Shown: positions 1-22,525 of the stretch, piece by piece | Layout of the letters: every line of letters begins with the position of its first letter | Numbering within the stretch: the stretch's first letter is position 1 | IMG/VR virus record: IMGVR_UViG_2537562015_000005 | Span: 1-27,033 of that record | Length of the DNA: 27,033 nt | Strand: one strand, 5' to 3' | Source: a virus | Taxonomy: Duplodnaviria > Heunggongvirae > Uroviricota > Caudoviricetes | The notes under the pieces: model-generated | What the model saw: only the letters and a program-made list of their open reading frames with translations | The model's database searches: none | Told to the model about the DNA's origin: nothing | Translations under genes and position numbers: made by a program

Positions 1-722
1 TTCCCGTAATTAAGATCAAGCCAGTAAGCGCGTACCCCCGTATACGCTTCGCGGTCAGCAATGCGGAACTGATGGCGATCGCCACTGCTGCGCGTGATGG
101 CGAACGAGGGCAACGGCTGGCCCTGTGCGTTCACGCCACCGCCTGGCATGATGAATAACAGATTACCGCTTTTTACCGTGGTGATTGCGCCCAACATTTC
201 CGCCATGCGCGTAAGGAAGGACATGTCGCTTTCTTCGGTCTGGTCGGCGTGGTCGATTTCGATATCCATCAGCATTTCGCTGATTTGCGGTTTCAGACCG
301 TACCGATGAGCGATGGCGGATACCACACGCTCAACGGTCACATCATGCCAGGACACCTCACGTTTAACGTTAAATTCATCCCGAAAATCTGCGCTTCTGG
401 CTGAAACAGTCAGCCTGTCCGGCGGTCCTTCGTGAGCGATTTCATCAACAATGTAAGTGCCTTTTTCTGTCAGCGGTTCTCCTTTCCAGCCAATGAGAAC
501 CGTCAGGCGCGCGCCCCGTGGCGGTAGCTGCAACTGACCATCCGCATCATCCAGCGTGATGGTGAGCTGGTCCGCCTCAAATCCCCGGTTGTCGGTCAGT
601 GACAGGCTCATCAGGCGCTCTGCCACGCCTGACAGCGTTTTACCCTCCGCGAGAATATCAAAATCCGGCATTTTCACGGGGTCTGTGCCCTGACTGAGCA
701 ATTGCATGGTGGTGTCGGTCAT
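1..722 (-). CDS. D: P2-like phage tail protein gpD (late control D family), N-terminal ~240 aa; continues past the left edge
   Basis: Reverse-strand frame opens at ATG 722..720 behind a GGGAGGGAG RBS and stays open to position 1 (hand-translated: MTDTTMQLLSQGTDPVKMPDFDILAEGKTLSGVAERLMSLSLTDNRGFEADQLTITLDDADGQLQLPPRGARLTVLIGWKGEPL...). Matches P2 gpD as recalled from memory. Not in the ORF track because no stop lies in the window. Confidence 0.8.
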   Translation of the reverse strand, partial: MTDTTMQLLSQGTDPVKMPDFDILAEGKTLSGVAERLMSLSLTDNRGFEADQLTITLDDADGQLQLPPRGARLTVLIGWKGEPLTEKGTYIVDEIAHEGPPDRLTVSARSADFRDEFNVKREVSWHDVTVERVVSAIAHRYGLKPQISEMLMDIEIDHADQTEESDMSFLTRMAEMLGAITTVKSGNLLFIMPGGGVNAQGQPLPSFAITRSSGDRHQFRIADREAYTGVRAYWLDLNYG

Positions 723-879
723 CTGCTCCCTCCCTGTGCGGCATGGTCGCATGTGCGTGCGGAGGGGGTTACTGCTTTTTGTTGTCGCCGTGGCGGGAGA
801 ACGGCGCAGGGGTGAGATTACGCGCGTGGTGGGTGATGATTGTTGCCGAATCATTTAACGGATACAAGGGGCTGAAGCT

Positions 880-2065
880 ATGAGTGAAACTCGTTTTCAT
901 GGTGCCCGTGTTACGGAAAATACCGACCTGGTAACAGCGATTAACGATGTTGATTCCAGCGTTATCGGTATCGTGGCAACGGCGGATGATGCGGACGCGA
1001 AGCTGTTCCCGCTGAACAAGCCCACACTGCTGACCCGCGTCAATGACGTGCTGGGAAAATGCGGGAACAACGGGGACGCTTTATCGTGCGCTTAAGGCCA
1101 TCGCAGACCAGGTGAGCACAAAGGTGATCGTCGTTCGCGTGGCTGAACACAAAGAAGAAGACGGAAAAACGCAGGATCAACTGGTTATCGGTGGTTCTGA
1201 ATCTGACGGCAGCTATACGGGGATGTATGCGCTGCTTGTTGCAGAGCAGGATGAAAGCATCGGATACCGTCCGCGTATTCTGGCCGCGCCGGAGCTGGAC
1301 ACGGAGGCGGTAACAAAATCCCTGTGCGTGATTGCGGGTAAACTGCGCGCGTTTGTGTATGCCTCATGTCACGGCTGTAACACGATGGCTGAGGCGATTA
1401 CCTACCGCCAGAAATTCAACGAACGTGAGGTGATGCTCTTATGGCCGGACTTCATCGCCTACAACCCGAAAAGTGGCAAAAACGAAACGTTCCCCGCGCC
1501 TGCCTATGCGTGCGGCCTTCGTGCGTACATTGACCATGAGCAGGGTTGGCACAAATCGCTGTCCAACGTTCCGGTTAAAAATGTGCTGGGGATGTCCAGG
1601 CATGTGTTCTGGTCGTTGCAGGCCGAAGACAGTGATGCCAACAGCCTCAACAACAAAGAAATCACGACCATTATTCGTCGCAACGGGTTCCGCTTCTGGG
1701 GCAACCGCACACCGGAAACGAACGCCTACATCTTTGAGGTGTATACCCGAACCGCACAGGTGCTGGCTGATTCAATTGCGGAAGCGCAGTTTGAAACCAT
1801 CGATAGTCCACTGACGCCTGCGAACGTGAAGGATGTTATCAGTGCCATCAGGGCAAAACTGGATTCACTGGTGACTGCCGGGAAACTGATTGGGGCGTCG
1901 TGCTGGTATGACGTGGTGGATAACAGCACCACGAATTTACGTCAGGGGCGTGTGCATATTCGCTACAAATATACGCCCGTTCCTCCGCTGGAAGACATGG
2001 AGCTTTACCAGTCGTTTACTGATGAATTCTTTGGTCCCGCATTTGCGGTGCTGGGAGGTGCCTGA
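880..2065 (+). pseudogene. FI: P2-like tail sheath protein FI, frame-disrupted: 880..1095 and 1043..2065 are the same gene in two frames
   Basis: Both ORFs match P2 FI colinearly (MSETRFHGARV...FPLNKPTLLTRVNDVLGK then AGTTGTLYRALKAIADQV...WGNRT...YKYTPVPPLE). The frame switches at GGA AAA T GCG (extra nucleotide near 1060). The 1043..2065 ORF alone would give an N-terminally truncated sheath. Confidence 0.85.
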
Positions 2066-2577
2066 TGGCTGTACCAAAACATCTTCGCTTTTTTACGCTG
2101 TTTGTGGATGGTGAAAACGAAGTGGGTAAGGTGACGTCCGTCACCCTGCCTAAACTGACGCGCAAAACCGACAGCTACCGGGGTGGTGGCATGATGGGTG
2201 CGGTAAGTATTGATCTCGGTCTGGACGACTCCGCGCTTGATGCGAGCTTTGTCATGGGGGGCGCAGTTCGTGAGCTGTTCCTTAAGTATGGCGGCACGAT
2301 TGACGGCACGCTACTGCGTTTTGCGGGTGAATACTACACCGATGCAGAAAGCGACCTGTATGAAGTCGAAATGCGCGGACGCGTGACGGAAATTGATATG
2401 GGGGAAGCCAAACAGGGCGAAGCCACATCACACACTTACGCCATTAAAAACACCTACTACAAGCTGAGTGTTAACGATCGTCCGTTGTGGGAGATTGACC
2501 TGCTGAACTTCATTTACCGGAAGGACGGCAAGGACATTGTGCCCGATCGCATCCGTTCCGCGCTTGGGCTTGGCTGA
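2065..2577 (+). CDS. FII: P2-like tail tube protein FII
   Basis: 170 aa; start overlaps the FI stop. Matches P2 FII (LPKLTRK..YRGGGM..DLGLDD..LRFAGEY..EVEMRGR..EIDMGE). Confidence 0.85.
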   Translation: MAVPKHLRFFTLFVDGENEVGKVTSVTLPKLTRKTDSYRGGGMMGAVSIDLGLDDSALDASFVMGGAVRELFLKYGGTIDGTLLRFAGEYYTDAESDLYEVEMRGRVTEIDMGEAKQGEATSHTYAIKNTYYKLSVNDRPLWEIDLLNFIYRKDGKDIVPDRIRSALGLG

Positions 2578-2631
2578 TAAGTAATATGCAGGCGGCGCAG
2601 TGCGTCGCCTCTGACTGAAAGGAGTTTCCTG

Positions 2632-2997
2632 ATGAAAGAGACGAAAAACATCGATACCGAAAACACGGTAGTTGCTGACACTGTGAAAGAAACCAGTGAG
2701 CGTGGCGTAAAACTTACCCAACCAATTGAGCGAGGCGGCGAAAAAATCACGTATGTGGAGATCACCGGGGCTATTGAGCAGGCTGGATCTCTGCGAGATT
2801 TGTCGCTGTCTGATGTGCTGAATCTGAAAGCGGAATCCATGTTTACGCTGCTGTCACGAGTGACATCACCGCGACTGGATGAAGTGACGATCAAAAAAAT
2901 GGCATCCCGTGACTTTATTCAGTTATGTGTGGTTGCCGTAAATTTTTTGAGCGGTGCGGACTCTGGCGGGAAGAACGAACAGGCGACGGAAGCCTGA
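2632..2997 (+). CDS. E: P2-like tail assembly chaperone gpE
   Basis: 121 aa; position between tube and tape measure; contains the T TTT TTG slippery heptamer near its 3' end. Confidence 0.8.
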   Translation: MKETKNIDTENTVVADTVKETSERGVKLTQPIERGGEKITYVEITGAIEQAGSLRDLSLSDVLNLKAESMFTLLSRVTSPRLDEVTIKKMASRDFIQLCVVAVNFLSGADSGGKNEQATEA

Positions 2998-3161
2998 TCA
3001 CGGTTGTGTGCTTTGAGCACATAGAAGACTTTGTGGCAGATATTGCCGTTATTTTTAACTGGTCGCCCGCCGAAATCTTCATGATGACGCCCGGCGAAGT
3101 GGTTAGCTGGCGTGAGCGGGCGGCACTTCGCAGCGGGAATGCAGACAATGAAGACTCTTGA
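2632..3161 (+). CDS. E': gpE+E' fusion made by programmed -1 frameshift (join 2632..2948 with 2949..3161 in the -1 frame)
   Basis: Slippery TTTTTTG at 2943..2949. The -1 frame continues as ERCGLWREERTGDGSLITVVCFEHIEDF...WRERAALRSGNADNEDS and stops at 3161, overlapping the T start, as in the P2 E/E' arrangement. Confidence 0.7.
2943..2949 (+). other. Programmed -1 ribosomal frameshift slippery site (T_TTT_TTG) of the gpE/E' pair
   Basis: Heptamer read directly; frames on either side verified by hand translation. Confidence 0.7.
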
Positions 3162-5955
3162 TATCCGGGTCGCTTTCAGCGCCGTTGACAGGCTGACCCA
3201 GCCTGCCGAAAACGCCCGCCGCCTGATGGGGCAGTTTGGTGACTCCATCCAGCGAACGCAGGGGGCGATCAAAAATCTCGAGCGTCAGGCGCGTTCATTT
3301 GAGCGCGCCCGCGACGCTGTCAGTAAAGCGGATGCGGGTATCGTGAAAGCACGACGCCAGCTTAACGCCCTTAATCAGTTACAACGCACGGGTACAGTGC
3401 TCAGCGAAAAACAACAAAAGCTGATGCAGCAGTTAAGCACCCGGCTTGAACGCCTGAATGAATCGCGCACGCGGGAAATTCAGAAAATGCGGGAGCTTGG
3501 CGGAGAGCTGAAACGCCACGGCATTTCCCTGACAGGCAGCGATAACACCATCCAGCAGGCCATCAGACGCACCGAACAGTACAACAATCAGCTTGAACGC
3601 GAACGGCAGGCGCTTGCGCGTGTAACGCGGGCGCGTGAGCGGTATTCGCGCGCGCAGGAAACAGCGGGAAAACTGAAAACAGGTGGTGCACTGGCAATTG
3701 GTGCGGCAGCGGCGGGCGGCTATGCTGCCGGGCGTTTTTTGCAGCCTGCGATCGGGTTCGGGAAAGAGATGTCCCGCGTTCAGGCACTGACGCGAATCGA
3801 CCAGAACAGCCCGCAGTTTAAGGCGCTGCGTGAGCAGGCGTTAAAACTTGGCTCTGAAACGCAGTTCACCGCAGGCGATGCCGCCAGTGGGCAGGCATTT
3901 CTGGCAATGGCTGGCTTCACACCGCAGGCCATTCAGGCTGCGCTTCCCGGCGTGCTGAGCATGGCAACGGCTGGCGGTATGGACCTTGGCGAGACGGCAG
4001 ATATTGGCTCAAATATCCTGACGCAGTTCGGCCTCTCCGCTGACCAGATGGACCGGGTCGGTGACACGCTTACAGCAGTGTTTACCCGTACTAACACTGA
4101 CCTTCGCGCACTGGGCGAAACCATGAAATATGCAGGTCCGGTGGCGGGTAAGCTGGGAATATCGCTGGAGCAGGCCGCAGCGATGGCGGGCGTGCTGGCG
4201 AATATGGGTATCAGAGGGAGTGATGCCGGGACGGCAATGCGTGCCAGCCTGGCTCGTCTGGCATCACCGCCAAAGGCGGCAGCAGAAGCGCTGAAAGAGC
4301 TGGGTGTGTCCGTCTCTGATGCGAACGGCAAAATGCGCCCGATGGAAGATGTGCTGGCCGACCTTTATAAAGCCACCCGTAAATACGGGGAAGTTGACCG
4401 GGTATCGTTCTTTAAGGACATTGCCGGGGAAGAGGCTTTCACGTCGTTTATGGCTCTCGTTGATGCGGCGGGTGACGGCTCCCTGCCCAAACTGAGAAAA
4501 GAACTTGAGGGCGCACGCGGTGAGGCTGAACGCACGGCAAAGGTTATGGCCAATAACCTTGATGGCGACCTGAAATCACTCGGCAGTGCATGGGAAGGGC
4601 TGCGTATCCGCATTGCAGATCTGATTGATGGTCCGCTGCGTTCTGTCACGCAGTGGCTCACGCGGGTGGTCTCAAAGGTGACGGCGCTGGCACAGGCCCA
4701 TCCGGTACTGACGCGCCAGTTACTGATAGCAGGCGGTGCGCTGCTGGCAATGACTGCAACGGTTGGCTCGTTGTCGCTGGTTATTGGAGTGCTTCACGGG
4801 AAGCTGGCCACGTTGCGTCTTGGTTTTTCTCTCCTGACCGGATCAATGAATGCTGTCAGGCTCCTGCCAGCACTATGGGGAATGGTGACGGGTTCCGTTT
4901 CGTTACTGGGGGGCGCTATCGGGGCGCTGTTCAGCCCGGTCGGATTGATTGCTGCTGCGTTTGTGGCTGCGGCAGTTCTCATCTGGAAATACTGGGAACC
5001 CATCAAGGCGTTTTATGCCGGGGTGTTCAGCGGGATTATGGAGCGGCTGGCCCCGTTACGCGAAACCTTTGAACGGTTTGGTCCTGTTTTTGACGCAATC
5101 GGAAGCGGGATAAGTCAGGTGTTTAACTGGTTTAAATCGTTGCTGTCACCGATGGAGTCCAGCAAGGAAACGCTGGATAAATGTACCAGTGCTGGCGAGA
5201 TATTCGGTAACGTTCTTGGCGGTGCGTTACAGCTTGTTCTGACGCCCGCAAAAATGTTGCTGGATACGCTGGCGTGGATACTTGAAAAACTCGGTGTGCT
5301 TCCGGATGAAGCGGAAAGGGCGAGAAAGAAAATCGAAGACGCACAGCGTGCGGCCATTCTTCAGGACAAGGTTGCTCTGTTTCAGGGAGACATTGCGAAA
5401 ATCAATCCGCCGAAGTCTGCGGAAAATGGCAATGGCACCGGAGGTGATAAACCCAAAGACAATAAACCGCTCACAGACAGCAATACCGGTACGCTACGCA
5501 GACTCAGCAAAATTGCTGATAACACAGGTAAGCTGGTTGATGAGACGAAAAAACGTATTGGCCCCGGCGATATTGTCTTTAAGAACCTGCCCCGCGCACT
5601 TGCCGTTCGTGGGGAGTGGCAGGAGCGGAAGATTGTGCAGGTCAGTAAGCCTGCCCCCGCAATTAATATCACACCCGTGGTCCCGGCTCCGCTGCCTCCG
5701 GCGCTGGTCCCTGTTGTTGCGGCCAACTCCCGCCCGGTGGCGGAGGCCATACGATCTCCAGTGGCATCAGTTCCTGTAACTTCCCGTAACCGGGAGCCTG
5801 TTGCCTCCGGATTTGGTGGTGAAATTCATGTTCATCTGCATAACGTTGTTACGCAGAATCCCCGCGAACTGGCGAAACTGGTCGGTGAAATGGTCAGGGC
5901 AGAAATGGAACGGCGCGCCCGTGCCGGGCGTGGCAGTTTTTACGATAAAGATTGA
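3112..5955 (+). CDS. T: P2-like tail tape measure protein gpT
   Basis: 947 aa; coiled-coil-rich N-terminus, central hydrophobic/glycine-rich stretch (LLIAGGALLAMTATVGSLSLVIG...), location after E/E'. The track start at 3112 is GTG; ATG at 3139 or 3148 are alternative starts. Confidence 0.85.
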   Translation: MSGRHFAAGMQTMKTLDIRVAFSAVDRLTQPAENARRLMGQFGDSIQRTQGAIKNLERQARSFERARDAVSKADAGIVKARRQLNALNQLQRTGTVLSEKQQKLMQQLSTRLERLNESRTREIQKMRELGGELKRHGISLTGSDNTIQQAIRRTEQYNNQLERERQALARVTRARERYSRAQETAGKLKTGGALAIGAAAAGGYAAGRFLQPAIGFGKEMSRVQALTRIDQNSPQFKALREQALKLGSETQFTAGDAASGQAFLAMAGFTPQAIQAALPGVLSMATAGGMDLGETADIGSNILTQFGLSADQMDRVGDTLTAVFTRTNTDLRALGETMKYAGPVAGKLGISLEQAAAMAGVLANMGIRGSDAGTAMRASLARLASPPKAAAEALKELGVSVSDANGKMRPMEDVLADLYKATRKYGEVDRVSFFKDIAGEEAFTSFMALVDAAGDGSLPKLRKELEGARGEAERTAKVMANNLDGDLKSLGSAWEGLRIRIADLIDGPLRSVTQWLTRVVSKVTALAQAHPVLTRQLLIAGGALLAMTATVGSLSLVIGVLHGKLATLRLGFSLLTGSMNAVRLLPALWGMVTGSVSLLGGAIGALFSPVGLIAAAFVAAAVLIWKYWEPIKAFYAGVFSGIMERLAPLRETFERFGPVFDAIGSGISQVFNWFKSLLSPMESSKETLDKCTSAGEIFGNVLGGALQLVLTPAKMLLDTLAWILEKLGVLPDEAERARKKIEDAQRAAILQDKVALFQGDIAKINPPKSAENGNGTGGDKPKDNKPLTDSNTGTLRRLSKIADNTGKLVDETKKRIGPGDIVFKNLPRALAVRGEWQERKIVQVSKPAPAINITPVVPAPLPPALVPVVAANSRPVAEAIRSPVASVPVTSRNREPVASGFGGEIHVHLHNVVTQNPRELAKLVGEMVRAEMERRARAGRGSFYDKD

Positions 5956-5961
5956 GGAGTC

Positions 5962-6456
5962 ATGGCCATGATGATGATCTACGGCATGTTTGTTTTTGAG
6001 CTGCGCACGCTGCCGCATCAGCAGTTACAGCAAAACAAAAGCTGGCGGCATGTGAAAAATGAACGCGTTAACCGTTCAGCAAGCTGGCAGTATATCGGTG
6101 CAGGTGATGATCGCATCGTTCTTTCTGGTGTGCTTTATCCTGAAATTACAGGTGGCGAAGTGTCGCTGTCGCTGCTGACCACGCAGGCGTATACAGGACG
6201 ACCCTGGCCTTTGATTGATGGCGTCGGGCAGATTTACGGCATGTATGTCCTGACCGGAACGAACACGACCCGTTCCGAGTTTGATCGCTACGGTAAGGCG
6301 AAAAAGATAGAATTTTCACTGACCCTTGAACGCTGTGATGAGGATTTGCGGGAGCGCCTGCAATCCTCATCGTTCAGCGATATGCTGTCCGGCTTCAAAG
6401 ATAAAGTGACATCATCCCTTAACAGCGCGGCCAGTTCAGTTAAAGGGCTGTTCTGA
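5962..6456 (+). CDS. U: P2-like tail protein gpU
   Basis: 164 aa directly after T; resembles P2 gpU N-terminus (MMMIYGMFVFELRTLPHQQLQ...). Confidence 0.75.
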   Translation: MAMMMIYGMFVFELRTLPHQQLQQNKSWRHVKNERVNRSASWQYIGAGDDRIVLSGVLYPEITGGEVSLSLLTTQAYTGRPWPLIDGVGQIYGMYVLTGTNTTRSEFDRYGKAKKIEFSLTLERCDEDLRERLQSSSFSDMLSGFKDKVTSSLNSAASSVKGLF

Positions 6457-6618
6457 TTTAATGCTGGCCACTCATACCTGGTAATAAGTGGCCAGTCTTA
6501 ACACTCACCATTTGATTGCACCCGCGTTAACGATTTGTTACTGGGTATCAGACATGCTGGATAGCCAGTAGAAACATACCATTAAAATTATTACAATAAT
6601 TGGTCACATGATTATCTT

Positions 6619-6843
6619 ATGCTGAATAATAGAGATATGAATATTAATGAACTTAAAGACTGTATTCACTATGAAGTAATCGGTAGCGAGCGTCCTTTCT
6701 CCTGGCGAAAGGCAATTGTTCGCGCAATAAAACATAGAAGACTTCGTTATTTATTTTGGTGGCGCATAGCCAAATACCTTTTTGATAAAGGCGGATACTG
6801 CCGGAAGATTGCGGGGAAAATAGAACGTTTCATTCTTGGGTAG
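6619..6843 (+). pseudogene. N-terminal fragment of a putative hexapeptide-family (CysE/WbbJ-like) acetyltransferase, cut by IS1
   Basis: AT-rich 74-aa ORF with a helical N-terminal pattern (...LRYLFWWRIAKYLFDKGG..RKIAGKIERFILG) like the N-terminus of sugar O-acetyltransferases. Its stop codon TAG (6841..6843) lies inside the IS1 terminus (IS1 starts 6839). Family assignment is tentative. Confidence 0.3.
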
Positions 6844-6853
6844 TGACTCCAAC

Positions 6854-7357
6854 TTACTGATAGTGTTTTATGTTCAGATAATGCCCGATGACCTTGTCAT
6901 GCAGCTCCACCGATTTTGAGAACGACAGTGACTTCCGTCCCAGCCTTGCCAGATGTTGTCTCAGATTCAGATTATGTCGCTCAATGCGCTGAGTGTAACG
7001 CTTGCTGATAACGTGCAGCTTTCCCTTCAGGCGTGATTCATACAGCGGCCAGCCATCCGTCATCCATACCACGACCTCAAAGGCCGACAGCAGGCTCAGA
7101 AGACGCGCCAGTGTGGCCAGAGTGCGTTCACCGAAAACGTGCGCCACAACTGTCCTCCGTATCCTGTCATACGCGTAAAACAGCCAGCGCTGACGTGATT
7201 TAGCACCGACGTAGCCCCACTGTTCGTCCATTTCCGCGCAGACAATCACATCACTGCCCGGTTGTATGCGCGAGGTTACCGACTGCGGCCTGAGTTTTTT
7301 AAGTGACGTAAAACCGTGTTGAGGCCAACGCCCATAATGCGGGCAGTTGCCCGGCAT
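6854..7357 (-). CDS. insB: IS1 transposase InsB (expressed as InsAB' by frameshift)
   Basis: 167 aa [18 protein letters not shown]...; canonical IS1 insB. Confidence 0.9.
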
Positions 7358-7551
7358 CCAACGCCATTCATGGCCATATCAATGATTTTCTGGTGCGTAC
7401 CGGGTTGAGAAGCGGTGTAAGTGAACTGCAGTTGCCATGTTTTACGGCAGTGAGAGCAGAGATAGCGCTGATGTCCGGCGGTGCTTTTGCCGTTACGCAC
7501 CACCCCGTCAGTAGCTGAACAGGAGGGACAGCTGATAGAAACAGAAGCCAC
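7276..7551 (-). CDS. insA: IS1 InsA
   Basis: 91 aa [39 protein letters not shown]...; canonical IS1 insA. Confidence 0.9.
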
Positions 7552-7760
7552 TGGAGCACCTCAAAAACACCATCATACACTAAATCAGTAAGTTGGCAGC
7601 ATCACCCAGGTTTGGCTCGAATAAAAGGTAAAACATTTGGTGCGTTACCGTTAGATAACAATAATCCATTTTGGCTAGATAATGATGCCGCCCCAGGGTT
7701 AAAAAAGAGCCTGGGGGATGTCACTAAGGCTGCATTTGATTTATGTGATAAGTAACTAAA

Positions 7761-8762
7761 ATGTCGGTTCGTAAGATTCCATCAGGTAAATGGCTTTGCG
7801 AATGTTATCCCTACGGGGCATCGGGAAAACGCATTCGTAAACAGTTTGCGACAAAAAGTGAGGCGCTCTCTTATGAGCGCCGTTTAATGAATAGTAGAGT
7901 TGGAGACGAGTTTCAAGATGGTTCTGGTCCTCGTCTTTCTGAGTTGATTGCTCGTTGGTTTGAGATGTACGGTAAAACCTTGTCCTCTGGTGCAGAGCGC
8001 AAAGTCAAACTTGAGGCGATTTGTTCCAGGCTGGGAGATCCATTTGCTTCTCAGTTTGACAAAAATATGTTTGCCACTTATCGGGAAAGAAGGTTATCAG
8101 GAGAGTGGAATCCCAAGGGGAAGAAAAAACTTAGTGAAGCAACCGTTAATCGCGAGCAGTCATATCTACATGCTGTTTTTGCCGAACTGAAGCGCCTTGG
8201 GGAGTGGTCTGGTGAAAACCCCCTGACTGGTATTCGCAAGTTTCGTGAGGAAGAAAAGGAACTGGCGTTTCTGTATGTAGATGAGATTGAACGCCTTCTG
8301 ATTGCGTGTGATGAGTCACGGAATAAAGATTTGGGGGTTGTTGTCCGTATTGGGCTTGCGACTGGTGCTCGGTGGAGTGAAGCAGAAGGGTTAAAGCAAT
8401 CTCAAGTACTGCCCGGTCGAATCACATTTGTTAAAACTAAAGGAAAGAAGAACCGCACTGTACCGATTTCACCTCAATTGCAGGCTATGCTTCCCAAAAA
8501 ACGAGGAGCGCTATTTTCACCATGTTATGAGGCTTTTGACGCTGCAATTAAGAGAGCGAAGATCGAGCTTCCTGATGGGCAATTAACTCATGTGCTACGT
8601 CACACGTTTGCCAGTCATTTTATGATGCGGGGCGGAAATATTCTTGTGTTGCAAAAAATACTGGGGCATAGCGATATAAAAATGACTATGCGTTATGCGC
8701 ATTTTGCTCCAGGTCATTTAGAGGCTGCTGTTGAATTGAACCCTTTTGACAATAGAGGGTAA
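7761..8762 (+). CDS. int: P2-type phage integrase (tyrosine recombinase)
   Basis: 333 aa; C-terminal catalytic region ...GARWSEAEGL...TFVKTKGKKNRTVPIS...HVLRHTFASHFMMRGGNILVLQKILGHSDIKMTMRYAHFAPGHLEAAVELNP closely parallels P2 Int as recalled. Sits next to a tRNA 3' fragment. Confidence 0.9.
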   Translation: MSVRKIPSGKWLCECYPYGASGKRIRKQFATKSEALSYERRLMNSRVGDEFQDGSGPRLSELIARWFEMYGKTLSSGAERKVKLEAICSRLGDPFASQFDKNMFATYRERRLSGEWNPKGKKKLSEATVNREQSYLHAVFAELKRLGEWSGENPLTGIRKFREEEKELAFLYVDEIERLLIACDESRNKDLGVVVRIGLATGARWSEAEGLKQSQVLPGRITFVKTKGKKNRTVPISPQLQAMLPKKRGALFSPCYEAFDAAIKRAKIELPDGQLTHVLRHTFASHFMMRGGNILVLQKILGHSDIKMTMRYAHFAPGHLEAAVELNPFDNRG

Positions 8763-8868: not shown

Positions 8869-8923
8869 TTTAAAATCCCTCGGCGTTCGCGCTGTGCGGG
8901 TTCAAGTCCCGCTCCGGGTACCA
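8869..8923 (+). other. tRNA-Leu(UAA) 3' fragment (anticodon loop to CCA), attachment-site remnant
   Basis: TTTAAAATCCCTCGGCGTTCGCGCTGTGCGGGTTCAAGTCCCGCTCCGGGTACCA matches the 3' 55 nt of E. coli leuZ as recalled. The upstream sequence cannot form the acceptor or D arm, so this is not a complete tRNA. Confidence 0.75.
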
Positions 8924-8963
8924 TGGGAAAGACAAGAATAATCAAAGCAATAAGCAGTGTCGT

Positions 8964-8990
8964 GAAACCACCTACGGGTGGTTTTTTTGT
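8964..8990. terminator. Rho-independent terminator-like hairpin, possibly bidirectional
   Basis: AAACCACC-TACG-GGTGGTTT followed by a T-run, with an A-run before the stem. Lies between the tRNA fragment and the 3' end of the minus-strand gene 9024..9905. Confidence 0.55.
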
Positions 8991-9023: not shown

Positions 9024-9905
9024 TCACGGGGTGCAATGAGCCGCAATCTCCAGCCTGGCAATGCCGAATCGAACGTGTCGCCTCCAGCATAGAGAACCAG
9101 GCCGCTTTGCCTGTTTTCCGGTACTCTTCCGGGAAGGGTGGCCTGCTGAGCAAGTTGTAATGCTCTGGCCGCCCTTAGTACAAAGTTGCTTAATTCGTGC
9201 AATCACCTCATCTCTGTACTTCTGGTGTCCGCGCATAGCCCTTGGATGGGCAATTCTGAAACAGATTGTATTACCTGTTTTGAACTCCCACAGCTTCCCC
9301 GGAATGACTGAAGAAGTCTCATAACCGCCCAGCTCAGTAAGCACCTGTTTAATGATGTAGTCTGTTCTCCGGGCTCCGGATGCAAAGATCATGAAATCAG
9401 GCTCAAGGTGTTTAATTTGTACCGCCAGCAGCTTCAGCGAGGCTAATATGACTTCCTGCACTTCATTTTGAGGGCGATTGAGAGGGGTCAGTCCGTCGTA
9501 ATCCCACGCCAGTAGATTGGCATACACGATAGCCTGAGGAGGAATATTAAGCTCCCGGGCCAGCCTGAAATGATATTGCGTGAAGCGGCTACGTGATTTG
9601 AGGTTGGTGGTGCCATCATTTTGTACCGGAAGATGTTTCCTGTAACGATCTACAGCTTCTTCAACCACCTGCCCGATGGTGACGTCAGGCATAAGTCCCA
9701 ACACCCGTGATATCGTATTCTTACCATTCAGCGTATTCCAGCCTGCGGTTTCACGTCTAACCAGCATGATTTTTACCGGTGAATGCCAGTATTCTTCAAA
9801 CGGCACGGGTAAAAAGACGCCTGAGTATTTATCTTCATTCAGGTTAAATGACTGGGCGTCAACTTCCTGTAATATCCGTTTGTACGCGTCTAATAGCCTT
9901 TCCAT
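9024..9905 (-). CDS. Hypothetical protein; C-terminal ~60 aa may not be native
   Basis: 293-aa ORF with an RBS; no family recognised. The last ~60 codons (about 9024..9200) are GC-rich and low-complexity (..GGQSITTCSAGHPSRKSTGKQAKRPGSLCWRRH..), unlike the rest of the gene. Confidence 0.5.
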   Translation of the reverse strand: MERLLDAYKRILQEVDAQSFNLNEDKYSGVFLPVPFEEYWHSPVKIMLVRRETAGWNTLNGKNTISRVLGLMPDVTIGQVVEEAVDRYRKHLPVQNDGTTNLKSRSRFTQYHFRLARELNIPPQAIVYANLLAWDYDGLTPLNRPQNEVQEVILASLKLLAVQIKHLEPDFMIFASGARRTDYIIKQVLTELGGYETSSVIPGKLWEFKTGNTICFRIAHPRAMRGHQKYRDEVIARIKQLCTKGGQSITTCSAGHPSRKSTGKQAKRPGSLCWRRHVRFGIARLEIAAHCTP

Positions 9906-9985
9906 TCTTCAATCCTGCCCCGTAATAAAAACACCTTCAGATATATATTATTTTCATGATATCAATCAGATATATGAGGATAAAT

Positions 9986-11185
9986 ATGCAAAAATCCTTC
10001 CGATTCACCAATTCATCCATCAAAGCCCTTCCGGCAAACACAGATACCCGATCTACAGAGCTTGAGGTATCCGATACTGAGGTCATTGGCCTCAAATGCC
10101 TCTCAGGTCGAACGGGTAACAAACGTTTCCTCCTGCGCTACACATTCCACGGTACCAAAAAAAGTATCAGTATTGGCAGATTCCCTGAAATTGATGTGGG
10201 GACAGCCCGTCAGATAGCTCGTCGTCACAAGGAGGCGATTGCACTGGGAAATGACCCTAAGGCAGAACGCGATAATTATCGTGCTATGCCAACGCTTAGT
10301 GAGTTTTTTCACCAGACCTATGTTCCGTTCATCAAACGCCATAAAAAGTCCTGGGATAAGGATGTTCAGCGTTTCACGCAATACATTGAACCTTGTCTGG
10401 GGAAGATACGTTACTGTGACCTTCGGGCCCGGGAAATCCAGCAGGTGCTTTTCGACATGCTTGAGGGTCGTATTCACGGGCAGCAATATGCGCCGTCTAC
10501 CTGTAACAGAGCCCTTGCTATTCTGAAAACGATGGGGCGTTATGCGTTGCGACAGGATGTGCTGGAAAAGAATGAAGCCGATAAGATCCCTTTACTGAAA
10601 GAGAATAATCAGCGGACGCGCTTTTTTGATGCTGATGAGATCAGGCGCATTCTTGACGCTGCTACCCAATATCCCAACAAAGCTGCCGGGGGATTGATAG
10701 CCATGTTGTTGTTAACCGGTACACGCAAAACAGAAATGCTTAATGTCAGGCATGAACATATCGACCGGGCCAATCGTACTCTGTTCATTCCTTATACAAA
10801 AAATGGTCGCAGTCGGACGGTATATCTAAGCGATGCCGCATTATCGATTATTGATGCTATCCCACGAGTTGGCAGTAATCCGTATCTGTTCGCCATTAAG
10901 GATAATGGCAAACCGATATCGGAACCCCGATGGGCATATGAAAAAATACTGGCACAGTGCGGTATAGACAAGAATGAAGTCTGTTTTCACACCACACGTC
11001 ATTCTGTTGCCTCTTTACTGGTTTCGAGTGGTCAATTCAGCCTGTATGACGTTAAAGCCCAACTGGCGCATGCCAGTATTCAGAGTACAGAACGTTACGC
11101 GAAATTAACACCGGAACGTATGCGTCAGACAGGGCAGGGAGTGACTGACCTGCTTCTGAATACTGCGGCTACGAAGCAGATGTGA
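9986..11185 (+). CDS. int: P4-type integrase (tyrosine recombinase)
   Basis: ATG at 9986 preceded by GAGGA (the track ORF starts upstream at 9956 in the same frame). N-terminal arm-binding-type region plus C-terminal catalytic region (..LLLTGTRKTEM..HTTRHSVASLL..ERYAKL). Confidence 0.85.
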   Translation: MQKSFRFTNSSIKALPANTDTRSTELEVSDTEVIGLKCLSGRTGNKRFLLRYTFHGTKKSISIGRFPEIDVGTARQIARRHKEAIALGNDPKAERDNYRAMPTLSEFFHQTYVPFIKRHKKSWDKDVQRFTQYIEPCLGKIRYCDLRAREIQQVLFDMLEGRIHGQQYAPSTCNRALAILKTMGRYALRQDVLEKNEADKIPLLKENNQRTRFFDADEIRRILDAATQYPNKAAGGLIAMLLLTGTRKTEMLNVRHEHIDRANRTLFIPYTKNGRSRTVYLSDAALSIIDAIPRVGSNPYLFAIKDNGKPISEPRWAYEKILAQCGIDKNEVCFHTTRHSVASLLVSSGQFSLYDVKAQLAHASIQSTERYAKLTPERMRQTGQGVTDLLLNTAATKQM

Positions 11186-12484: not shown

Positions 12485-12566
12485 TTTATTTCCTGCACTG
12501 TTATACAACCAGAAATCACCACACACCACTATTTACTTTCTAAAGGAAAATGGTAGTGACTCCAAC

Positions 12567-13070
12567 TTACTGATAGTGTTTTATGTTCAGATAATGCCCG
12601 ATGACCTTGTCATGCAGCTCCACCGATTTTGAGAACGACAGTGACTTCCGTCCCAGCCTTGCCAGATGTTGTCTCAGATTCAGATTATGTCGCTCAATGC
12701 GCTGAGTGTAACGCTTGCTGATAACGTGCAGCTTTCCCTTCAGGCGTGATTCATACAGCGGCCAGCCATCCGTCATCCATACCACGACCTCAAAGGCCGA
12801 CAGCAGGCTCAGAAGACGCGCCAGTGTGGCCAGAGTGCGTTCACCGAAAACGTGCGCCACAACTGTCCTCCGTATCCTGTCATACGCGTAAAACAGCCAG
12901 CGCTGACGTGATTTAGCACCGACGTAGCCCCACTGTTCGTCCATTTCCGCGCAGACAATCACATCACTGCCCGGTTGTATGCGCGAGGTTACCGACTGCG
13001 GCCTGAGTTTTTTAAGTGACGTAAAACCGTGTTGAGGCCAACGCCCATAATGCGGGCAGTTGCCCGGCAT
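12567..13070 (-). CDS. insB: IS1 transposase InsB
   Basis: Identical to 6854..7357. Confidence 0.9.
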
Positions 13071-13264
13071 CCAACGCCATTCATGGCCATATCAATGATT
13101 TTCTGGTGCGTACCGGGTTGAGAAGCGGTGTAAGTGAACTGCAGTTGCCATGTTTTACGGCAGTGAGAGCAGAGATAGCGCTGATGTCCGGCGGTGCTTT
13201 TGCCGTTACGCACCACCCCGTCAGTAGCTGAACAGGAGGGACAGCTGATAGAAACAGAAGCCAC
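12989..13264 (-). CDS. insA: IS1 InsA
   Basis: Identical to 7276..7551. Confidence 0.9.
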
Positions 13265-13314
13265 TGGAGCACCTCAAAAACACCATCATACACTAAATCA
13301 GTAAGTTGGCAGCA

Positions 13315-14139
13315 TCACCCAGAGTATACAATGCTTAAAATTATGGCGTTACTTATATTATTAATTGCAGTTGGGTAAATATGCAGGTTGCTTATCAATT
13401 CTGAAAGGCAAAGTAAAACACCAGTGATGTTAGGTTTTCTGCCAGATATTGTGGTGGTGTTGAAAATGTGCCGATTCTTACGACTTATATTGACAAATTT
13501 ATGAGTGCAGAACTCTATATGTTCGACGATTTTATCTTGACTATTTTTAATGTATTTTGAAATGTTAGTGATTCGTCCATTCAACGTTAGCTCATCAAGT
13601 AATATGTCATTTTTAATACTGCGAATTTCATCGCAATGTTTAGATTCAAAAACTATCTCATGTAATACATAACTCGACGTATTGCGGGGTGACGCTGATA
13701 TGTAATCTAAAATAGAAGGCTCGATTTTGATTTTTTGTTTGTATTTTTTAATGCACTGTTTGATTATTTTTTGTAGAGTATTTGAGATGTGTTTTTTATA
13801 TTCTTTTAGAAAATCATGCTCTAAAAAGAGTGAGGAGAAGATCAACTGCTGGCGAGATAATTTAATCTCAGGCTTGATCAATTTAATCCGGAAAACTCTT
13901 CCCTCCAACTCATAGCTGAACATGGAAGATAAGTCATAGTGGGGTGATAAATGTTCGAGTAACGACATTCGTGTATTCATTAGCCGCTTGAATTTATGGT
14001 CAGCATACATAAGTATTTTTTTTATTTGCTCATCGTAAAGTGGGCCGATAACGCAATTAGCAATACTCATACTATCCGGAGACCTCCAGTCAACAGGGGA
14101 ATCACATTGACGGCCACCATTACAATCAAAGGGTATCAA
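13315..14139 (-). CDS. AT-rich hypothetical protein (K/I/N-rich), probably truncated at the 3' end by IS1; likely start near 14071 (MSIANCVIG...)
   Basis: Visibly AT-rich ORF, foreign to its neighbours. Its stop codon (13315..13317) lies inside the IS1 terminus (IS1 ends 13319). Divergent from hsdM. No family recognised. Confidence 0.5.
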   Translation of the reverse strand: MIPFDCNGGRQCDSPVDWRSPDSMSIANCVIGPLYDEQIKKILMYADHKFKRLMNTRMSLLEHLSPHYDLSSMFSYELEGRVFRIKLIKPEIKLSRQQLIFSSLFLEHDFLKEYKKHISNTLQKIIKQCIKKYKQKIKIEPSILDYISASPRNTSSYVLHEIVFESKHCDEIRSIKNDILLDELTLNGRITNISKYIKNSQDKIVEHIEFCTHKFVNISRKNRHIFNTTTISGRKPNITGVLLCLSELISNLHIYPTAINNISNAIILSIVYSG

Positions 14140-14442: not shown

Positions 14443-16029
14443 ATGAACGACAAAATCAGTCAGGACACGATCAACAAAGCCCTGTGGGCCGCGTGTGATA
14501 CGTTCCGTGGCACCATCAGTGCTGATACCTATAAAGACTTTATCCTTACCATGCTGTTCCTTAAGTACATTTCGGATGTCTGGCAGGATCATTACGATGA
14601 ATATAAAAAACAGTATGGTGATGCACCAGAACTCATTGAAGCCATGATGTCGAATGAACGTTTCGTATTGCCGAAAAGCGCCAGTTTCTATGCGCTGTAT
14701 GAACGTCGTCATGAACCGGGCAATGGTGAGCGCATCGACCAGGCTCTGCATGCGATTGAAGAAGCTAATGGCACCAAACTGAAAGACGCCGGGAAAAGCG
14801 TGTTCCAGGATATTTCGTTTAACACCGATCGCCTAGGTGAAGAAAAACAGAAGAACACCATCCTGCGTCAGCTGCTGGAAGACTTTGCCGGTCAAGATCT
14901 TAACCTGAAGCCGAGCCGTGTCGGTACGCTGGACGTTATCGGTAATGCCTACGAATATCTGATCAAAAACTTTGCTGCCAGCGGTGGGCAGAAAGCCGGG
15001 GAATTCTATACCCCACCAGAAGTTTCGGACCTGATTGCAGAACTGCTCGATCCGCAACCGGGTGATACCATCTGCGATCCGGCCTGTGGTTCCGGTTCAT
15101 TATTGATGAAGTGTGGGCGTAAAATTGTCTCCGGGCATGATAGTCGTAACTATGCATTGTTCGGTCAGGAAGCGATCGGTTCTACGTGGTCGCTGGCGAA
15201 AATGAATATGTTCCTGCACGGGGAAGACAACCATAAAATCGAGTGGGGCGATACCATTCGTAACCCGAAGCTGCTCGATAAAAATGGCGACCTGATGCTG
15301 TTTGATATCGTGACCGCTAACCCACCGTTCAGCCTCGATAAGTGGGGCCATGACGAGGCCGAGAACGATAAGTTTGGCCGTTTTCGTCGCGGTGTACCGC
15401 CGAAGACTAAAGGCGATTACGCCTTTATCTCACATATGATCGAAACCCTGAAACCAGGAACGGGGCGTATGGGCGTAGTTGTGCCACACGGTGTGCTGTT
15501 CCGTGGTTCCAGCGAAGGTAAAATTCGCCAGAAACTGATCGACGAAAATCTGCTGGATGCCGTCATTGGCTTGCCGGAAAAACTGTTCTACGGTACAGGT
15601 ATTCCTGCTGCGATTCTGATTTTCAAAAAACAGAAAGTGGATGACAAGGTACTGTTTATCGATGCCAGCCGTGAATATAAGGCGGGCAAAAACCAGAACC
15701 AGCTCAGCGCAGAAAATATCCAGAAGATCGTTAACACCTATCGTGAAGGCGATAACGTCGAGAAATACGCCTATCTCGCCAGCCTGAAAGAGATTCAGGA
15801 CAACGACTATAACCTTAATATTCCACGCTATGTCGATACCTTTGAGGAAGAAGACGAAATTGATTTGCTGGCGGTACGTGCTGAGCGTGAGCAACTGAAA
15901 GCGGAACTGGTAAAGCTGGAAATGGAGATGGCTGGGTATTTGAAAGAATTAGGGTACGATTGGCAGAAAGATTCCGAGGGCACACAAAAAATAAACTCTG
16001 CGGAAGTGAATTTTGGAGATTTTGAATGA
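14443..16029 (+). CDS. hsdM: Type I restriction-modification N6-adenine DNA methyltransferase HsdM
   Basis: 528 aa; AdoMet motif DPACGSGSLL and catalytic NPPF; N-terminal HsdM-type helical domain. Confidence 0.95.
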   Translation: MNDKISQDTINKALWAACDTFRGTISADTYKDFILTMLFLKYISDVWQDHYDEYKKQYGDAPELIEAMMSNERFVLPKSASFYALYERRHEPGNGERIDQALHAIEEANGTKLKDAGKSVFQDISFNTDRLGEEKQKNTILRQLLEDFAGQDLNLKPSRVGTLDVIGNAYEYLIKNFAASGGQKAGEFYTPPEVSDLIAELLDPQPGDTICDPACGSGSLLMKCGRKIVSGHDSRNYALFGQEAIGSTWSLAKMNMFLHGEDNHKIEWGDTIRNPKLLDKNGDLMLFDIVTANPPFSLDKWGHDEAENDKFGRFRRGVPPKTKGDYAFISHMIETLKPGTGRMGVVVPHGVLFRGSSEGKIRQKLIDENLLDAVIGLPEKLFYGTGIPAAILIFKKQKVDDKVLFIDASREYKAGKNQNQLSAENIQKIVNTYREGDNVEKYAYLASLKEIQDNDYNLNIPRYVDTFEEEDEIDLLAVRAEREQLKAELVKLEMEMAGYLKELGYDWQKDSEGTQKINSAEVNFGDFE

Positions 16030-17123
16030 CTCTTAAATGGGAAAAGGTTCGTTTAGGAGATGTCGCAGAATTACAACGTGGTTTTGATCTACCCAGTACT
16101 AAGCGTATTGAAGGGGAGATTCCTATTGTTTCATCAAGTGGAATAACAGGCTTCCATGTTGAAGCGAAGGCAAAGGCTCCAGGAGTTGTCACTGGGCGAT
16201 ATGGTTCGATTGGTGATGTTTTTTATTTAGAACAGGATTTTTGGCCATTAAATACATCCTTATGGGTTAAAGATTTTCATGGAAATGACGAAAAATTTAT
16301 CTACTTTCTGTTGAGTAACTTTGACTTTAAAAAATTTAGTGACAAAACAGGTGTGCCCGGTGTTAACCGTAATGACTTGCATGCAGTGAATGTATTACTG
16401 CCGCCACTCTCGGAGCAAAAGAAAATCGCCCAAATCCTGTCAACCTGGGATAAAGCTATTTCGGTGACGGAAAAGCTTCTCACCAACAGCCAGCAGCAGA
16501 AAAAAGCCCTGATGCAGCAATTACTTACCGGGAAGAAACGCTTGCTGGATGAGAGGGGGGGCAGGTATGGTGGTGAGTGGCATCGTGCTGAGCTTGGCGC
16601 AGTTTTAGATTATATGCAGCCAACCCCTTATCTAGTTGATTCTACTGATTATAATGATAGTTACTCAATCCCAGTTCTTACAGCAGGTAAAAGTTTCATT
16701 CTTGGCTATACCAATGAAGAACATGGTATTTATCATGCACCTTTGCCTGCCATAATTTTTGATGATTTCACGACTGATAGTAAGTTCGTCGATTTTGAAT
16801 TCAAAGCAAAATCCAGTGCGATGAAAATTCTTACAGCCAAAAAAGGAGTATCTGCAAAGTATATTTTTGAAGCAATGCAAATGTTGAAATTTAAAATAGG
16901 TGGGCATCAGCGGCATTGGATTTCAATTTATTCCAACTTAGTAATACCTATTCCAGATGCCAAGGAACAACAAAAAATCGCCGCCGTCCTTTCCGCTGCA
17001 GACGCCGAAATCTCCACACTGGAGAAAAAACTCGCCTGCCTGAAAGACGAGAAAAAAGCCCTGATGCAGCAGTTACTGACCGGAAAACGTCGGGTGAAAA
17101 TCGATGAGGCTGTTGCTGCATGA
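16026..17123 (+). CDS. hsdS: Type I R-M specificity subunit HsdS
   Basis: 365 aa with two target-recognition domains separated by conserved helical repeats (QQKKALMQQLLTGKKRL and EKKALMQQLLTGKRRV). ATGA overlap with hsdM. TRD2 is visibly more AT-rich. Confidence 0.9.
   Translation: MTLKWEKVRLGDVAELQRGFDLPSTKRIEGEIPIVSSSGITGFHVEAKAKAPGVVTGRYGSIGDVFYLEQDFWPLNTSLWVKDFHGNDEKFIYFLLSNFDFKKFSDKTGVPGVNRNDLHAVNVLLPPLSEQKKIAQILSTWDKAISVTEKLLTNSQQQKKALMQQLLTGKKRLLDERGGRYGGEWHRAELGAVLDYMQPTPYLVDSTDYNDSYSIPVLTAGKSFILGYTNEEHGIYHAPLPAIIFDDFTTDSKFVDFEFKAKSSAMKILTAKKGVSAKYIFEAMQMLKFKIGGHQRHWISIYSNLVIPIPDAKEQQKIAAVLSAADAEISTLEKKLACLKDEKKALMQQLLTGKRRVKIDEAVAA
16500..16540 (+). repeat. hsdS conserved central repeat; direct repeat partner at 17052..17089
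   Basis: AAAAAAGCCCTGATGCAGCA(A/G)TTACT(T/G)ACCGG occurs twice within hsdS, about 550 bp apart. Confidence 0.8.
17052..17089 (+). repeat. hsdS conserved C-terminal repeat; partner of 16500..16540
   Basis: See partner repeat. Confidence 0.8.
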
Positions 17124-17803: not shown

Positions 17804-17852
17804 TGAATCTTCATGTGACCAGTAGCGAGTAGCGCCAGAAAGAAAAGGATTA

Positions 17853-21923: not shown

Positions 21924-22525
<602 letters not shown>

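What the first reader, a model, noticed from the sequence alone, without database searches (positions are those of the whole stretch)
1..6456. P2-like tail module is decayed and in non-canonical order: gpD divergent from FI-FII-E-T-U, and tail genes co-oriented with int
In P2 the order is FI FII E E' T U D on one strand, with int transcribed in the opposite direction from the other side of att. Here gpD is on the minus strand upstream of FI, nothing phage-like follows gpU, and the P2-type int lies downstream on the same strand as the tail genes. A simple explanation is an inversion of the FI-to-U segment followed by IS1-associated deletion of D-distal and replication genes; the alternative is two separate remnants. 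Either way this is a defective prophage.
Basis: partly seen in the sequence, partly recalled or inferred. Interest (0 to 1): 0.4.

Follow-up and report, generated by a model that had tools for sequence, protein, structure and literature searches.

The report
IS1-gutted P88-like prophage remnant
This is the leftover of a common P88-type (P2-related) prophage whose "odd" tail-gene order is simply the normal layout of that phage genus, and whose middle was removed by an IS1 insertion sequence; it is ordinary.

Summary
gpD lies on the minus strand (1-722), FI-FII-E/E'-T-U on the plus strand (880-6456), then IS1 and a P2-type integrase on the plus strand.

The D-divergent order is not decay. Window 1-6461 aligns as one colinear piece (97% identity) with viable Xuanwuvirus phages P88 and PhiSM. 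These phages have the same D<->FI arrangement, and their int is co-oriented with FI-U. The same junction occurs in 1,355 of 5,426 complete E. coli genomes.

The IS1 idea is correct and can be shown base by base:
- One sibling ETEC strain has an intact acetyltransferase gene after gpU and the rest of the prophage, ending in the same int.
- A second sibling has IS1 inserted in that gene with a 9-bp target duplication.
- The window keeps the same left IS1 junction, but its right junction falls in a DUF2511 gene 16,343 bp away, with no duplication.

A 122-bp leuZ-derived repeat (attL/attR) brackets the whole element, so it is one prophage, not two remnants. The retained tail genes are intact, including the E/E' slippery site, apart from a unique +1 A in FI. 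Verdict: a known kind of element, of low interest.

The parts
1..722 (-). 5' part of gpD (tail/baseplate hub, N-terminal 240 aa). The gene continues left of the window.
   Evidence: Pfam Phage_GPD. 55% identity to P2 gpD residues 15-232. The full 1110-bp gene, then ogr, hok and tRNA-Leu, lie to the left in E1739 and L1_E925.
723..879 (.). D<->FI divergent intergenic region, native to P88-type phages. It contains a candidate late-activator site, TTGT-N12-AGAAC, at 782-802.
   Evidence: Colinear and 97% identical to P88 33176-33332. The junction is present in 1,355 of 5,426 E. coli genomes. The motif is shared with the P88 terminase/scaffold divergent region. It was derived post hoc and is a lead only.
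880..2065 (+). FI tail sheath gene, split by a +1 A at 1066/1067 into ORFs 880-1095 and 1043-2065.
   Evidence: Alignment to P88 shows one gap at 1066. Pfam sheath domains. The insertion is absent from every complete E. coli genome that has the gene.
2065..2577 (+). FII tail tube gene.
   Evidence: Pfam Phage_tube, E = 7.5e-47.
2632..3161 (+). gpE / gpE+E' tail chaperone pair. E spans 2632-2997, the slippery TTTTTTG lies at 2943-2949, and the -1 frame extends to 3161.
   Evidence: Sequence. ORFs 2632-2997 and 2925-3161. The same annotation appears in E1739 and P88. The P2 E/E' -1 frameshift is annotated.
3148..5955 (+). gpT tape-measure gene, 2808 bp as in P88.
   Evidence: Pfam PhageMin_Tail. 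Same length as P88 28101-30908.
5968..6456 (+). gpU tail gene. Homology to P88 ends 5 bp after its stop codon, at 6461.
   Evidence: Pfam Phage_P2_GpU. 46% identity to P2 gpU. End of the blast alignment.
6457..6838 (+). Upstream region and first 67 codons (6637-6837) of a hexapeptide (WcaB-like) acetyltransferase cargo gene, truncated by IS1.
   Evidence: Full-length gene in strain 2014EL-1346-6, L005 21636-22181, with Pfam Hexapep. It is split by IS1 with a target duplication in L1_E925.
6839..7606 (-). IS1 (768 bp, transposase on the minus strand). No target-site duplication: the left flank is tcattcttg and the right flank is caggtttgg.
   Evidence: Sequence of both ends. Comparison with the L1_E925 simple insertion, which has the TSD tcattcttg.
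7607..7755 (+). 3' fragment of a DUF2511 cargo gene. This is the distal endpoint of the 16,343-bp deletion.
   Evidence: Window 7607 joins to L007 27780. The full gene carries Pfam DUF2511.
7761..8762 (+). Prophage integrase (P2-type tyrosine recombinase, 333 aa, WP_001300279).
   Evidence: Pfam Int_N plus Phage_integrase. The same protein ends the contiguous prophage in sibling strains. 97.8% DNA identity to phage 520873. 39% aa identity to P88 int.
8869..8990 (+). attR: a copy of the 3' 55 nt of tRNA-Leu (leuZ) plus its downstream terminator.
   Evidence: Direct repeat with the leuZ copy at attL. ARAGORN finds no full tRNA in the window.

Best explanation
The region is the right- and left-end remainder of one P88-type (genus Xuanwuvirus, family Peduoviridae) prophage integrated at the 3' end of tRNA-Leu (leuZ).

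In this genus the FI-FII-E/E'-T-U block is natively transcribed divergently from gpD-ogr, and therefore in the same direction as int. The layout is normal for the phage and says nothing about decay.

The decay itself ran as follows. IS1 first inserted into an acetyltransferase cargo gene just downstream of gpU. Then, most likely by intramolecular (one-ended) IS1 transposition, it deleted the 16.3 kb next to its right end. The deleted stretch held what was left of the tail-fibre, baseplate, head and terminase genes, the complete replication gene, the early genes and the repressor region. The deletion ends inside a DUF2511 gene just upstream of int.

What remains cannot make particles, replicate or be regulated. 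It consists of ogr, D, sheath, tube, chaperones, tape measure, U, int and both att sites.

Shown: the native layout, the single-prophage identity, the insertion-then-deletion series and the exact junctions.

Inferred: the one-ended transposition mechanism (as against recombination between two IS1 copies), and the idea that D and FI are driven by divergent Ogr-dependent late promoters in the 157-bp spacer.
For: Native layout:
- Window 1-6461 aligns to P88 34054-27595 as a single 97.1% alignment with one gap.
- The P88 annotation shows U..FI on the minus strand, D on the plus strand and int on the minus strand. PhiSM is the same.
- Thirteen phage records cover 92% of window 1-7000 colinearly.
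- P88 and PhiSM are viable (PMC5285337; PMC6456863).
- The D/FI junction is colinear in 1,355 of 5,426 E. coli genomes.

Single prophage:
- Strains 2014EL-1346-6 and L1_E925 carry, at the same leuZ site, D-FI..U-acetyltransferase-fibres-...-replication-HTH-DUF2511-int, with the identical int protein.
- A roughly 122-bp leuZ-derived direct repeat flanks the element.

IS1 deletion:
- L1_E925 has IS1 with a 9-bp duplication, tcattcttg.
- The window has the identical left junction, but its right junction is at L007 27780, with no duplication.
- No genome carries a second IS1 at the distal endpoint.
Against: - The one-ended mechanism cannot be formally separated from a transient second IS1 insertion followed by IS1-IS1 recombination. 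The absence of an intermediate among 5,426 genomes is negative evidence only.
- The sibling prophages are themselves already internally deleted, each in a different way. The exact ancestor of the window's form is therefore inferred, not observed.
- The int module is only 39% identical to that of P88, so the element is a mosaic relative of P88 rather than P88 itself.
- The proposed activator motif was defined from the two sites it 'finds', so that test is circular.
Confidence: 0.93

Rival explanations
1. One reading: the FI-to-U segment was inverted within this particular prophage as part of its decay, before IS1-associated deletion.
For: Relative to P2, the FI-U block is indeed flipped while D, ogr and int keep their P2-like relative orientation. 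An inversion therefore did happen at some point in the evolution of the lineage.
Against: - The flipped arrangement is shared, base-for-base colinear, with viable phages P88 and PhiSM and eleven more phage records. It is also present in 1,355 E. coli genomes.
- No inverted repeats flank the block.
- P88 has only two gix-like invertase sites, both around the tail-fibre segment.
- The inversion therefore predates the genus and is not a decay event here.
Confidence: 0.02
2. Two separate remnants: a P2-like tail fragment and an unrelated integrase-bearing element that happen to be brought together by IS1.
For: The int is only 39% identical to the P88 int. A second, P4-type integrase island lies immediately to the right, at 9956-11185.
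Against: - In two sibling strains the same int protein (WP_001300279) is the terminal gene of a contiguous prophage beginning with the same ogr-D-FI..U.
- Phage record 520873 carries both modules.
- The leuZ-derived attL and attR bracket ogr...int.
Confidence: 0.02
3. Mechanistic variant: the 16.3-kb loss arose by homologous recombination between the resident IS1 and a second, same-orientation IS1 that had inserted in DUF2511. It did not arise by one-ended intramolecular transposition.
For: The product would be identical: one IS1 and no matching target duplications. These genomes carry many IS1 copies, with up to 68 matches per genome to a window segment containing IS1. A second IS1-adjacent loss occurs 5 kb to the right.
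Against: A search for the predicted DUF2511|IS1 left junction found no genome with it among 5,426. The sibling with the simple insertion has only that one IS1 inside the prophage.
Confidence: 0.25
4. The retained sheath-tube-tape-measure-U-D-ogr set is a domesticated contractile device (a tailocin or helper function) kept by selection.
For: All retained tail ORFs except FI are full length, and the E/E' frameshift site is preserved.
Against: - There are no baseplate (V, W, J, I), fibre, tail-completion (R, S) or lysis genes.
- FI carries a frameshift in this window.
- The deleted form is seen in only one other complete genome, E1739. The sequence is 99.9% identical to its siblings, so the deletion is too recent for conservation to mean anything.
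Confidence: 0.02

Closest known systems
Escherichia phage P88 (Xuanwuvirus P88, Peduoviridae) and Citrobacter phage PhiSM
   Same: 97% (P88) and 95% (PhiSM) nucleotide identity, colinear over window 1-6461. The D<->FI divergent layout, gene lengths and E/E' frameshift site are the same. int is co-oriented with FI-U.
   Different: - The window lacks everything between gpU and int: invertase, fibres, baseplate, lysis, head, replication and immunity genes.
- An acetyltransferase cargo gene replaces the invertase and alternative-fibre segment after gpU.
- The int module differs (39% aa identity to P88 int) and targets leuZ.
- FI carries a +1 frameshift.
Escherichia phage 520873 (NC_049344) and the prophages at leuZ in ETEC L1_E925 and 2014EL-1346-6
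   Same: Same tail block (95-99.9% identity), same DUF2511-int-attR module (97.8-100% identity) and same chromosomal site.
   Different: These relatives retain the fibre-to-repressor segment, although the two ETEC copies each have their own internal deletions. The window has lost it by the IS1-adjacent deletion.
Bacteriophage P2 (Peduovirus P2) F operon
   Same: Orthologous genes: FI 46%, D 55% and U 46% aa identity. Also an Ogr-type activator, the TTTTTTG E/E' frameshift, and D-ogr converging on int across att.
   Different: In P2, FI-FII-E-E'-T-U-D-ogr form one unit on one strand. Here, and throughout Xuanwuvirus, FI-U is flipped, so D is divergent and must have its own promoter.
IS1-mediated adjacent deletion (the classical behaviour of IS1; from established knowledge)
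   Same: An intact 768-bp IS1 is retained. One junction is unchanged from the precursor insertion. The other junction has moved to a new site, with loss of the intervening DNA and of the 9-bp duplication.
   Different: Nothing unusual. The transposition-versus-recombination route is not resolved.

Membership tests
Xuanwuvirus (P88-like) prophage | High nucleotide identity and colinearity with type phage P88 across the tail module. | tested here: met
   Window 1-6461 against P88: 97.1% identity, a single alignment with one gap.
Xuanwuvirus (P88-like) prophage | gpD divergent from FI-FII-E-E'-T-U, with int co-oriented with FI-U. | tested here: met
   P88 and PhiSM annotations. Window ORFs and Pfam hits.
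Xuanwuvirus (P88-like) prophage | A complete set of head, baseplate, fibre, lysis, replication and immunity genes, i.e. an intact phage. | tested here: not met
   All of these are absent between 6457 and 7760. They are present at least in part in sibling strains. The element is therefore a defective remnant of this kind, not a functional member.
Xuanwuvirus (P88-like) prophage | Bounded by att repeats, with an integrase at one end. | tested here: met
   A roughly 122-bp leuZ-derived direct repeat. attL lies outside the window and attR at 8869-8990. int is at 7761-8762.
P2 / Peduovirus canonical F operon | FI FII E E' T U D ogr on one strand in that order. | tested here: not met
   D is on the opposite strand, upstream of FI, in contrast to P2.
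IS1 adjacent deletion | A full IS1 with terminal inverted repeats is retained at the deletion site. | tested here: met
   Positions 6839-7606, 768 bp, with ends ggtagtgactccaacttactgat and atcagtaagttggcagcatcacc.
IS1 adjacent deletion | A precursor simple insertion at the same site with a 9-bp target duplication. The deleted form keeps one junction and loses the duplication. | tested here: met
   L1_E925 has the TSD tcattcttg on both sides. In the window the left flank is the same and the right flank is caggtttgg, which corresponds to L007 27780.
IS1 adjacent deletion | It arose by intramolecular transposition rather than recombination between two IS1 copies. | tested here: inconclusive
   No two-IS1 intermediate was found in 5,426 genomes. 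This is negative evidence only.
R-type tailocin / domesticated contractile tail | Baseplate, fibre, tail-completion and lysis genes accompany the sheath and tube genes. | tested here: not met
   None are present in the window next to the tail genes. FI is frameshifted.

The most novel reading that the evidence does not exclude
The flip of FI-U in the whole Xuanwuvirus genus split the single P2-type F operon. The 157-bp D<->FI spacer (window 723-879) may have become a bidirectional Ogr-dependent late promoter region, analogous to the P2 pP/pO pair. A TTGT-N12-AGAAC activator site at 782-802 is also found in the P88 terminase/scaffold divergent region. I did not find this described in the two P88/PhiSM papers I read. 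It would be a modest new detail of P2-family late regulation, not a property of this remnant.
Probability: 0.4. Interest if true: 0.2.

Novelty: already known. Interest (0 to 1): 0.1.

Why it matters
It matters little beyond correct annotation.

The case shows that P2 is not the right synteny template for the very common P88-type prophages, which are present in about a quarter of complete E. coli genomes. Their D-divergent tail cluster should not be scored as a rearrangement.

The three sibling states (intact cargo gene, IS1 insertion with target duplication, IS1 with a 16.3-kb adjacent deletion) give a clean, base-resolved example of how IS1 erodes prophages within one ETEC lineage.

Tried and rejected
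- Inverted repeats or breakpoint scars around FI-U in the window: only short, chance-level pairs were found.
- Invertase crossover sites at the FI-U borders in P88: only the two expected gix-like sites around the tail-fibre segment were found. The block is therefore not an invertible segment.
- Sigma-70 promoter scan of the D/FI spacer: nothing was found in the spacer itself. This is expected for activator-dependent late promoters.
- Direct matching of the P2 pF and pO activator sites to the spacer: weak, 15 of 30 positions. The alternative motif TTGT-N12-AGAAC was derived post hoc, and its enrichment test is circular.
- Search for the hypothetical second IS1 insertion at the DUF2511 endpoint: none was found.
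- Search for the FI +1 A in other genomes: none was found, so I cannot tell a mutation from a sequencing error.
- ARAGORN on the window: no tRNA. This is consistent with attR holding only the 3' 55 nt of leuZ.
- Literature search for 'Xuanwuvirus' and P88: no explicit description of the flipped F operon turned up in the two papers I read.

Full report
**Observation**

- an N-terminal gpD fragment on the minus strand (3-722; Phage_GPD)
- sheath FI (880-2065)
- tube FII (2065-2577)
- gpE and E' (2632-3161)
- tape measure T (3148-5955)
- gpU (5968-6456) on the plus strand
- IS1 (6839-7606)
- a P2-type tyrosine integrase on the plus strand (7761-8762)

The proteins are true orthologues of P2 FI, D and U, at 46%, 55% and 46% identity. 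The P2 record confirms the canonical order: FI FII E E' T U D ogr on one strand, with int opposite across attP. The order here is therefore really different from P2.

**The arrangement is native, not decay**

A megablast of window 1-7000 against 50,697 phage records found 13 records covering 1-6461 colinearly at 94.5-97.5% identity. A pairwise blast to phage P88 gives one alignment: window 1-6461 against P88 34054-27595, 97.1% identity, 185 mismatches and a single gap.

In the P88 record, gpU, T, E', E, FII and FI are on the minus strand (27600-33175). gpD is on the plus strand (33333-34433) and int on the minus strand (108-1103). D is thus divergent from FI, and int is co-oriented with FI-U, exactly as in the window. 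Citrobacter phage PhiSM has the same layout.

P88 was induced, forms plaques, and has a measured burst size and electron micrographs (PMC5285337). PhiSM is a spontaneously released, lysogenising temperate phage that the authors aligned to P88 (PMC6456863).

The D/FI junction itself (window 520-1060) is present as one colinear piece in 1,355 of 5,426 complete E. coli genomes. There are no inverted repeats at the borders of the FI-U block. P88 has only two gix-like invertase sites, both flanking the tail-fibre segment, so the block is not a switchable segment.

Relative to D-ogr, int keeps its P2-like convergent orientation. Only FI-U is flipped. An inversion did occur, but in the ancestry of the genus Xuanwuvirus.

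**One prophage, bounded by att sites**

The window is 99.9% identical to ETEC chromosomes. In E1739 and L1_E925 the sequence left of the window holds the following, in order:
- the rest of gpD (1110 bp in total)
- ogr (Pfam Ogr_Delta)
- a hok/gef gene
- a small ORF
- tRNA-Leu of the glyW-cysT-leuZ cluster

A roughly 122-bp direct repeat comprises the 3' 55 nt of leuZ plus its terminator. One copy lies at the tRNA and the other 107 bp downstream of int, at window 8869-8990.

In ETEC strains 2014EL-1346-6 and L1_E925 the same site carries a contiguous prophage with this gene order:
- ogr-D | FI..U
- acetyltransferase
- tail-fibre assembly and fibre genes
- baseplate and head genes, each strain with its own internal deletions
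- replication endonuclease
- early genes
- HTH repressor-like gene
- hypothetical gene
- DUF2511
- int

The int protein is the same accession (WP_001300279) as in E1739, whose sequence matches the window. Phage record 520873 carries both the tail block and this int-attR module at 97.8% identity. The 'two remnants' alternative is therefore rejected. The int is only 39% identical to the P88 int, which is ordinary modular mosaicism.

**The IS1 deletion, base by base**

In 2014EL-1346-6 the hexapeptide acetyltransferase after gpU is intact (Pfam Hexapep).

In L1_E925 an IS1 sits inside it, flanked by the 9-bp duplication tcattcttg.

In the window the left junction is identical (...tcattcttg|ggtagtgactcc..., 6838|6839). 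The right IS1 end (...gcatcacc, 7606) abuts caggtttgg..., which is L007 position 27780 inside DUF2511. The window thus lacks L007 11437-27779 (16,343 bp) and has no target duplication.

This is the signature of an IS1-adjacent deletion. A search for the junction that a second IS1 in DUF2511 would create found none among 5,426 genomes. I therefore favour one-ended intramolecular transposition, though IS1-IS1 recombination cannot be excluded. Among complete genomes only E1739 shares the deleted form.

**State of the retained genes**

All retained tail genes have the same lengths as in P88. The TTTTTTG slippery heptamer for the -1 E/E' frameshift is in frame at 2943-2949. 'Decayed' therefore applies to the prophage, not to this module.

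The one lesion is an extra A at 1066/1067, which splits FI. None of the 1,370 complete genomes carrying this gene has it. It is either private to the source strain or a sequencing error.

**How it works, or no longer works**

In intact relatives the FI-U unit and D must be expressed from the 157-bp divergent spacer. No sigma-70 consensus promoter lies there, as expected for Ogr-dependent late promoters.

A TTGT-N12-AGAAC element at 782-802 also occurs in the P88 divergent terminase/scaffold spacer. This is a post hoc lead, not a demonstration.

In this window the element lacks fibres, baseplate, tail-completion, lysis, capsid, terminase, replication and repressor genes. It cannot form particles or tailocins, replicate or maintain immunity. 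With int and both att sites it might in principle still excise, but no cox-type gene remains.

**Comparison and novelty**

The element is a defective member of a known phage genus, damaged by a classical IS1 mechanism. Nothing about it is new in kind.

The only mildly new idea is regulatory: a bidirectional late promoter created by the genus-wide flip. That belongs to P88-type phages in general.

**Verdict**

- Observation: confirmed.
- Interpretation: partly supported. The IS1 deletion and defective status are right. Inversion-as-decay and 'non-canonical' are wrong.
- Novelty and interest: already known, low interest.

Noticed in passing
window 1060-1070: There is an extra A (GGGAACAAC against GGGACAAC) that frameshifts the FI sheath gene. 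It is absent from all 1,370 complete E. coli genomes carrying this gene, so it is a private mutation or a sequencing error.
   Followed up: yes
window 9956-11185 (with 9024-9905 on the minus strand): A second, P4-type integrase (Arm-DNA-bind_3 plus Phage_integrase) lies immediately after the prophage attR. A separate leuZ-associated genomic island appears to sit in tandem with the prophage.
   Followed up: partly
window 12552-13319: A second IS1 copy. Relative to strain L1_E925, the 2.8 kb next to it is missing (L007 32725-35562: DUF2787, DUF726 and an HTH regulator). This suggests a second IS1-adjacent deletion in the same neighbourhood.
   Followed up: partly
window 14443-21892: A type I restriction-modification operon (hsdM, hsdS, hsdR). 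A UPF0149/SEC-C gene is inserted between hsdS and hsdR; it matches the PADLOC candidate defence family PDC-S12 at E = 1e-100. A YgjP-like metallopeptidase gene overlaps the end of hsdR.
   Followed up: partly
window 22547-26036: Two overlapping GmrSD-like (DUF262) genes. The first carries GmrSD_N plus DUF7834, the second GmrSD_N plus GmrSD_C. Both match PADLOC HEC-06 / Orf5 / SspE-like models, so this is probably a type IV restriction-like defence pair. It is flanked by IS1 and IS3 fragments (21924-22525) and by IS100 at the window end.
   Followed up: partly
L005 25430-26529 and L007 16805-19724 (sibling ETEC strains): The same prophage carries different internal deletions in different strains of one ETEC lineage. 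One has a gpI'/gpM' junction. The other has a gpV'/capsid' junction plus a truncated terminase. This points to repeated, independent erosion.
   Followed up: no
window 6457-6838; L005 21636-22181: In this ETEC prophage a hexapeptide (WcaB-like) acetyltransferase occupies the slot between gpU and the tail-fibre genes. P88 has a DNA invertase and an alternative fibre segment there. The gene is a possible lysogenic-conversion cargo gene.
   Followed up: partly
window 782-802; L001 14214-14234 and 33253-33273: The motif TTGT-N12-AGAAC is shared by the D/FI spacer and the P88 terminase/scaffold divergent spacer. It is a candidate Ogr-type activator site. It was found post hoc, so its enrichment is not an independent test.
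   Followed up: partly
L004 42462-45832 (strain EC5931 prophage): A near-complete relative of this prophage at the same leuZ site carries an S8 peptidase plus AAA ATPase pair between the portal and replication genes. That position matches where P2 carries old and tin, so it is possibly a defence cargo.
   Followed up: no
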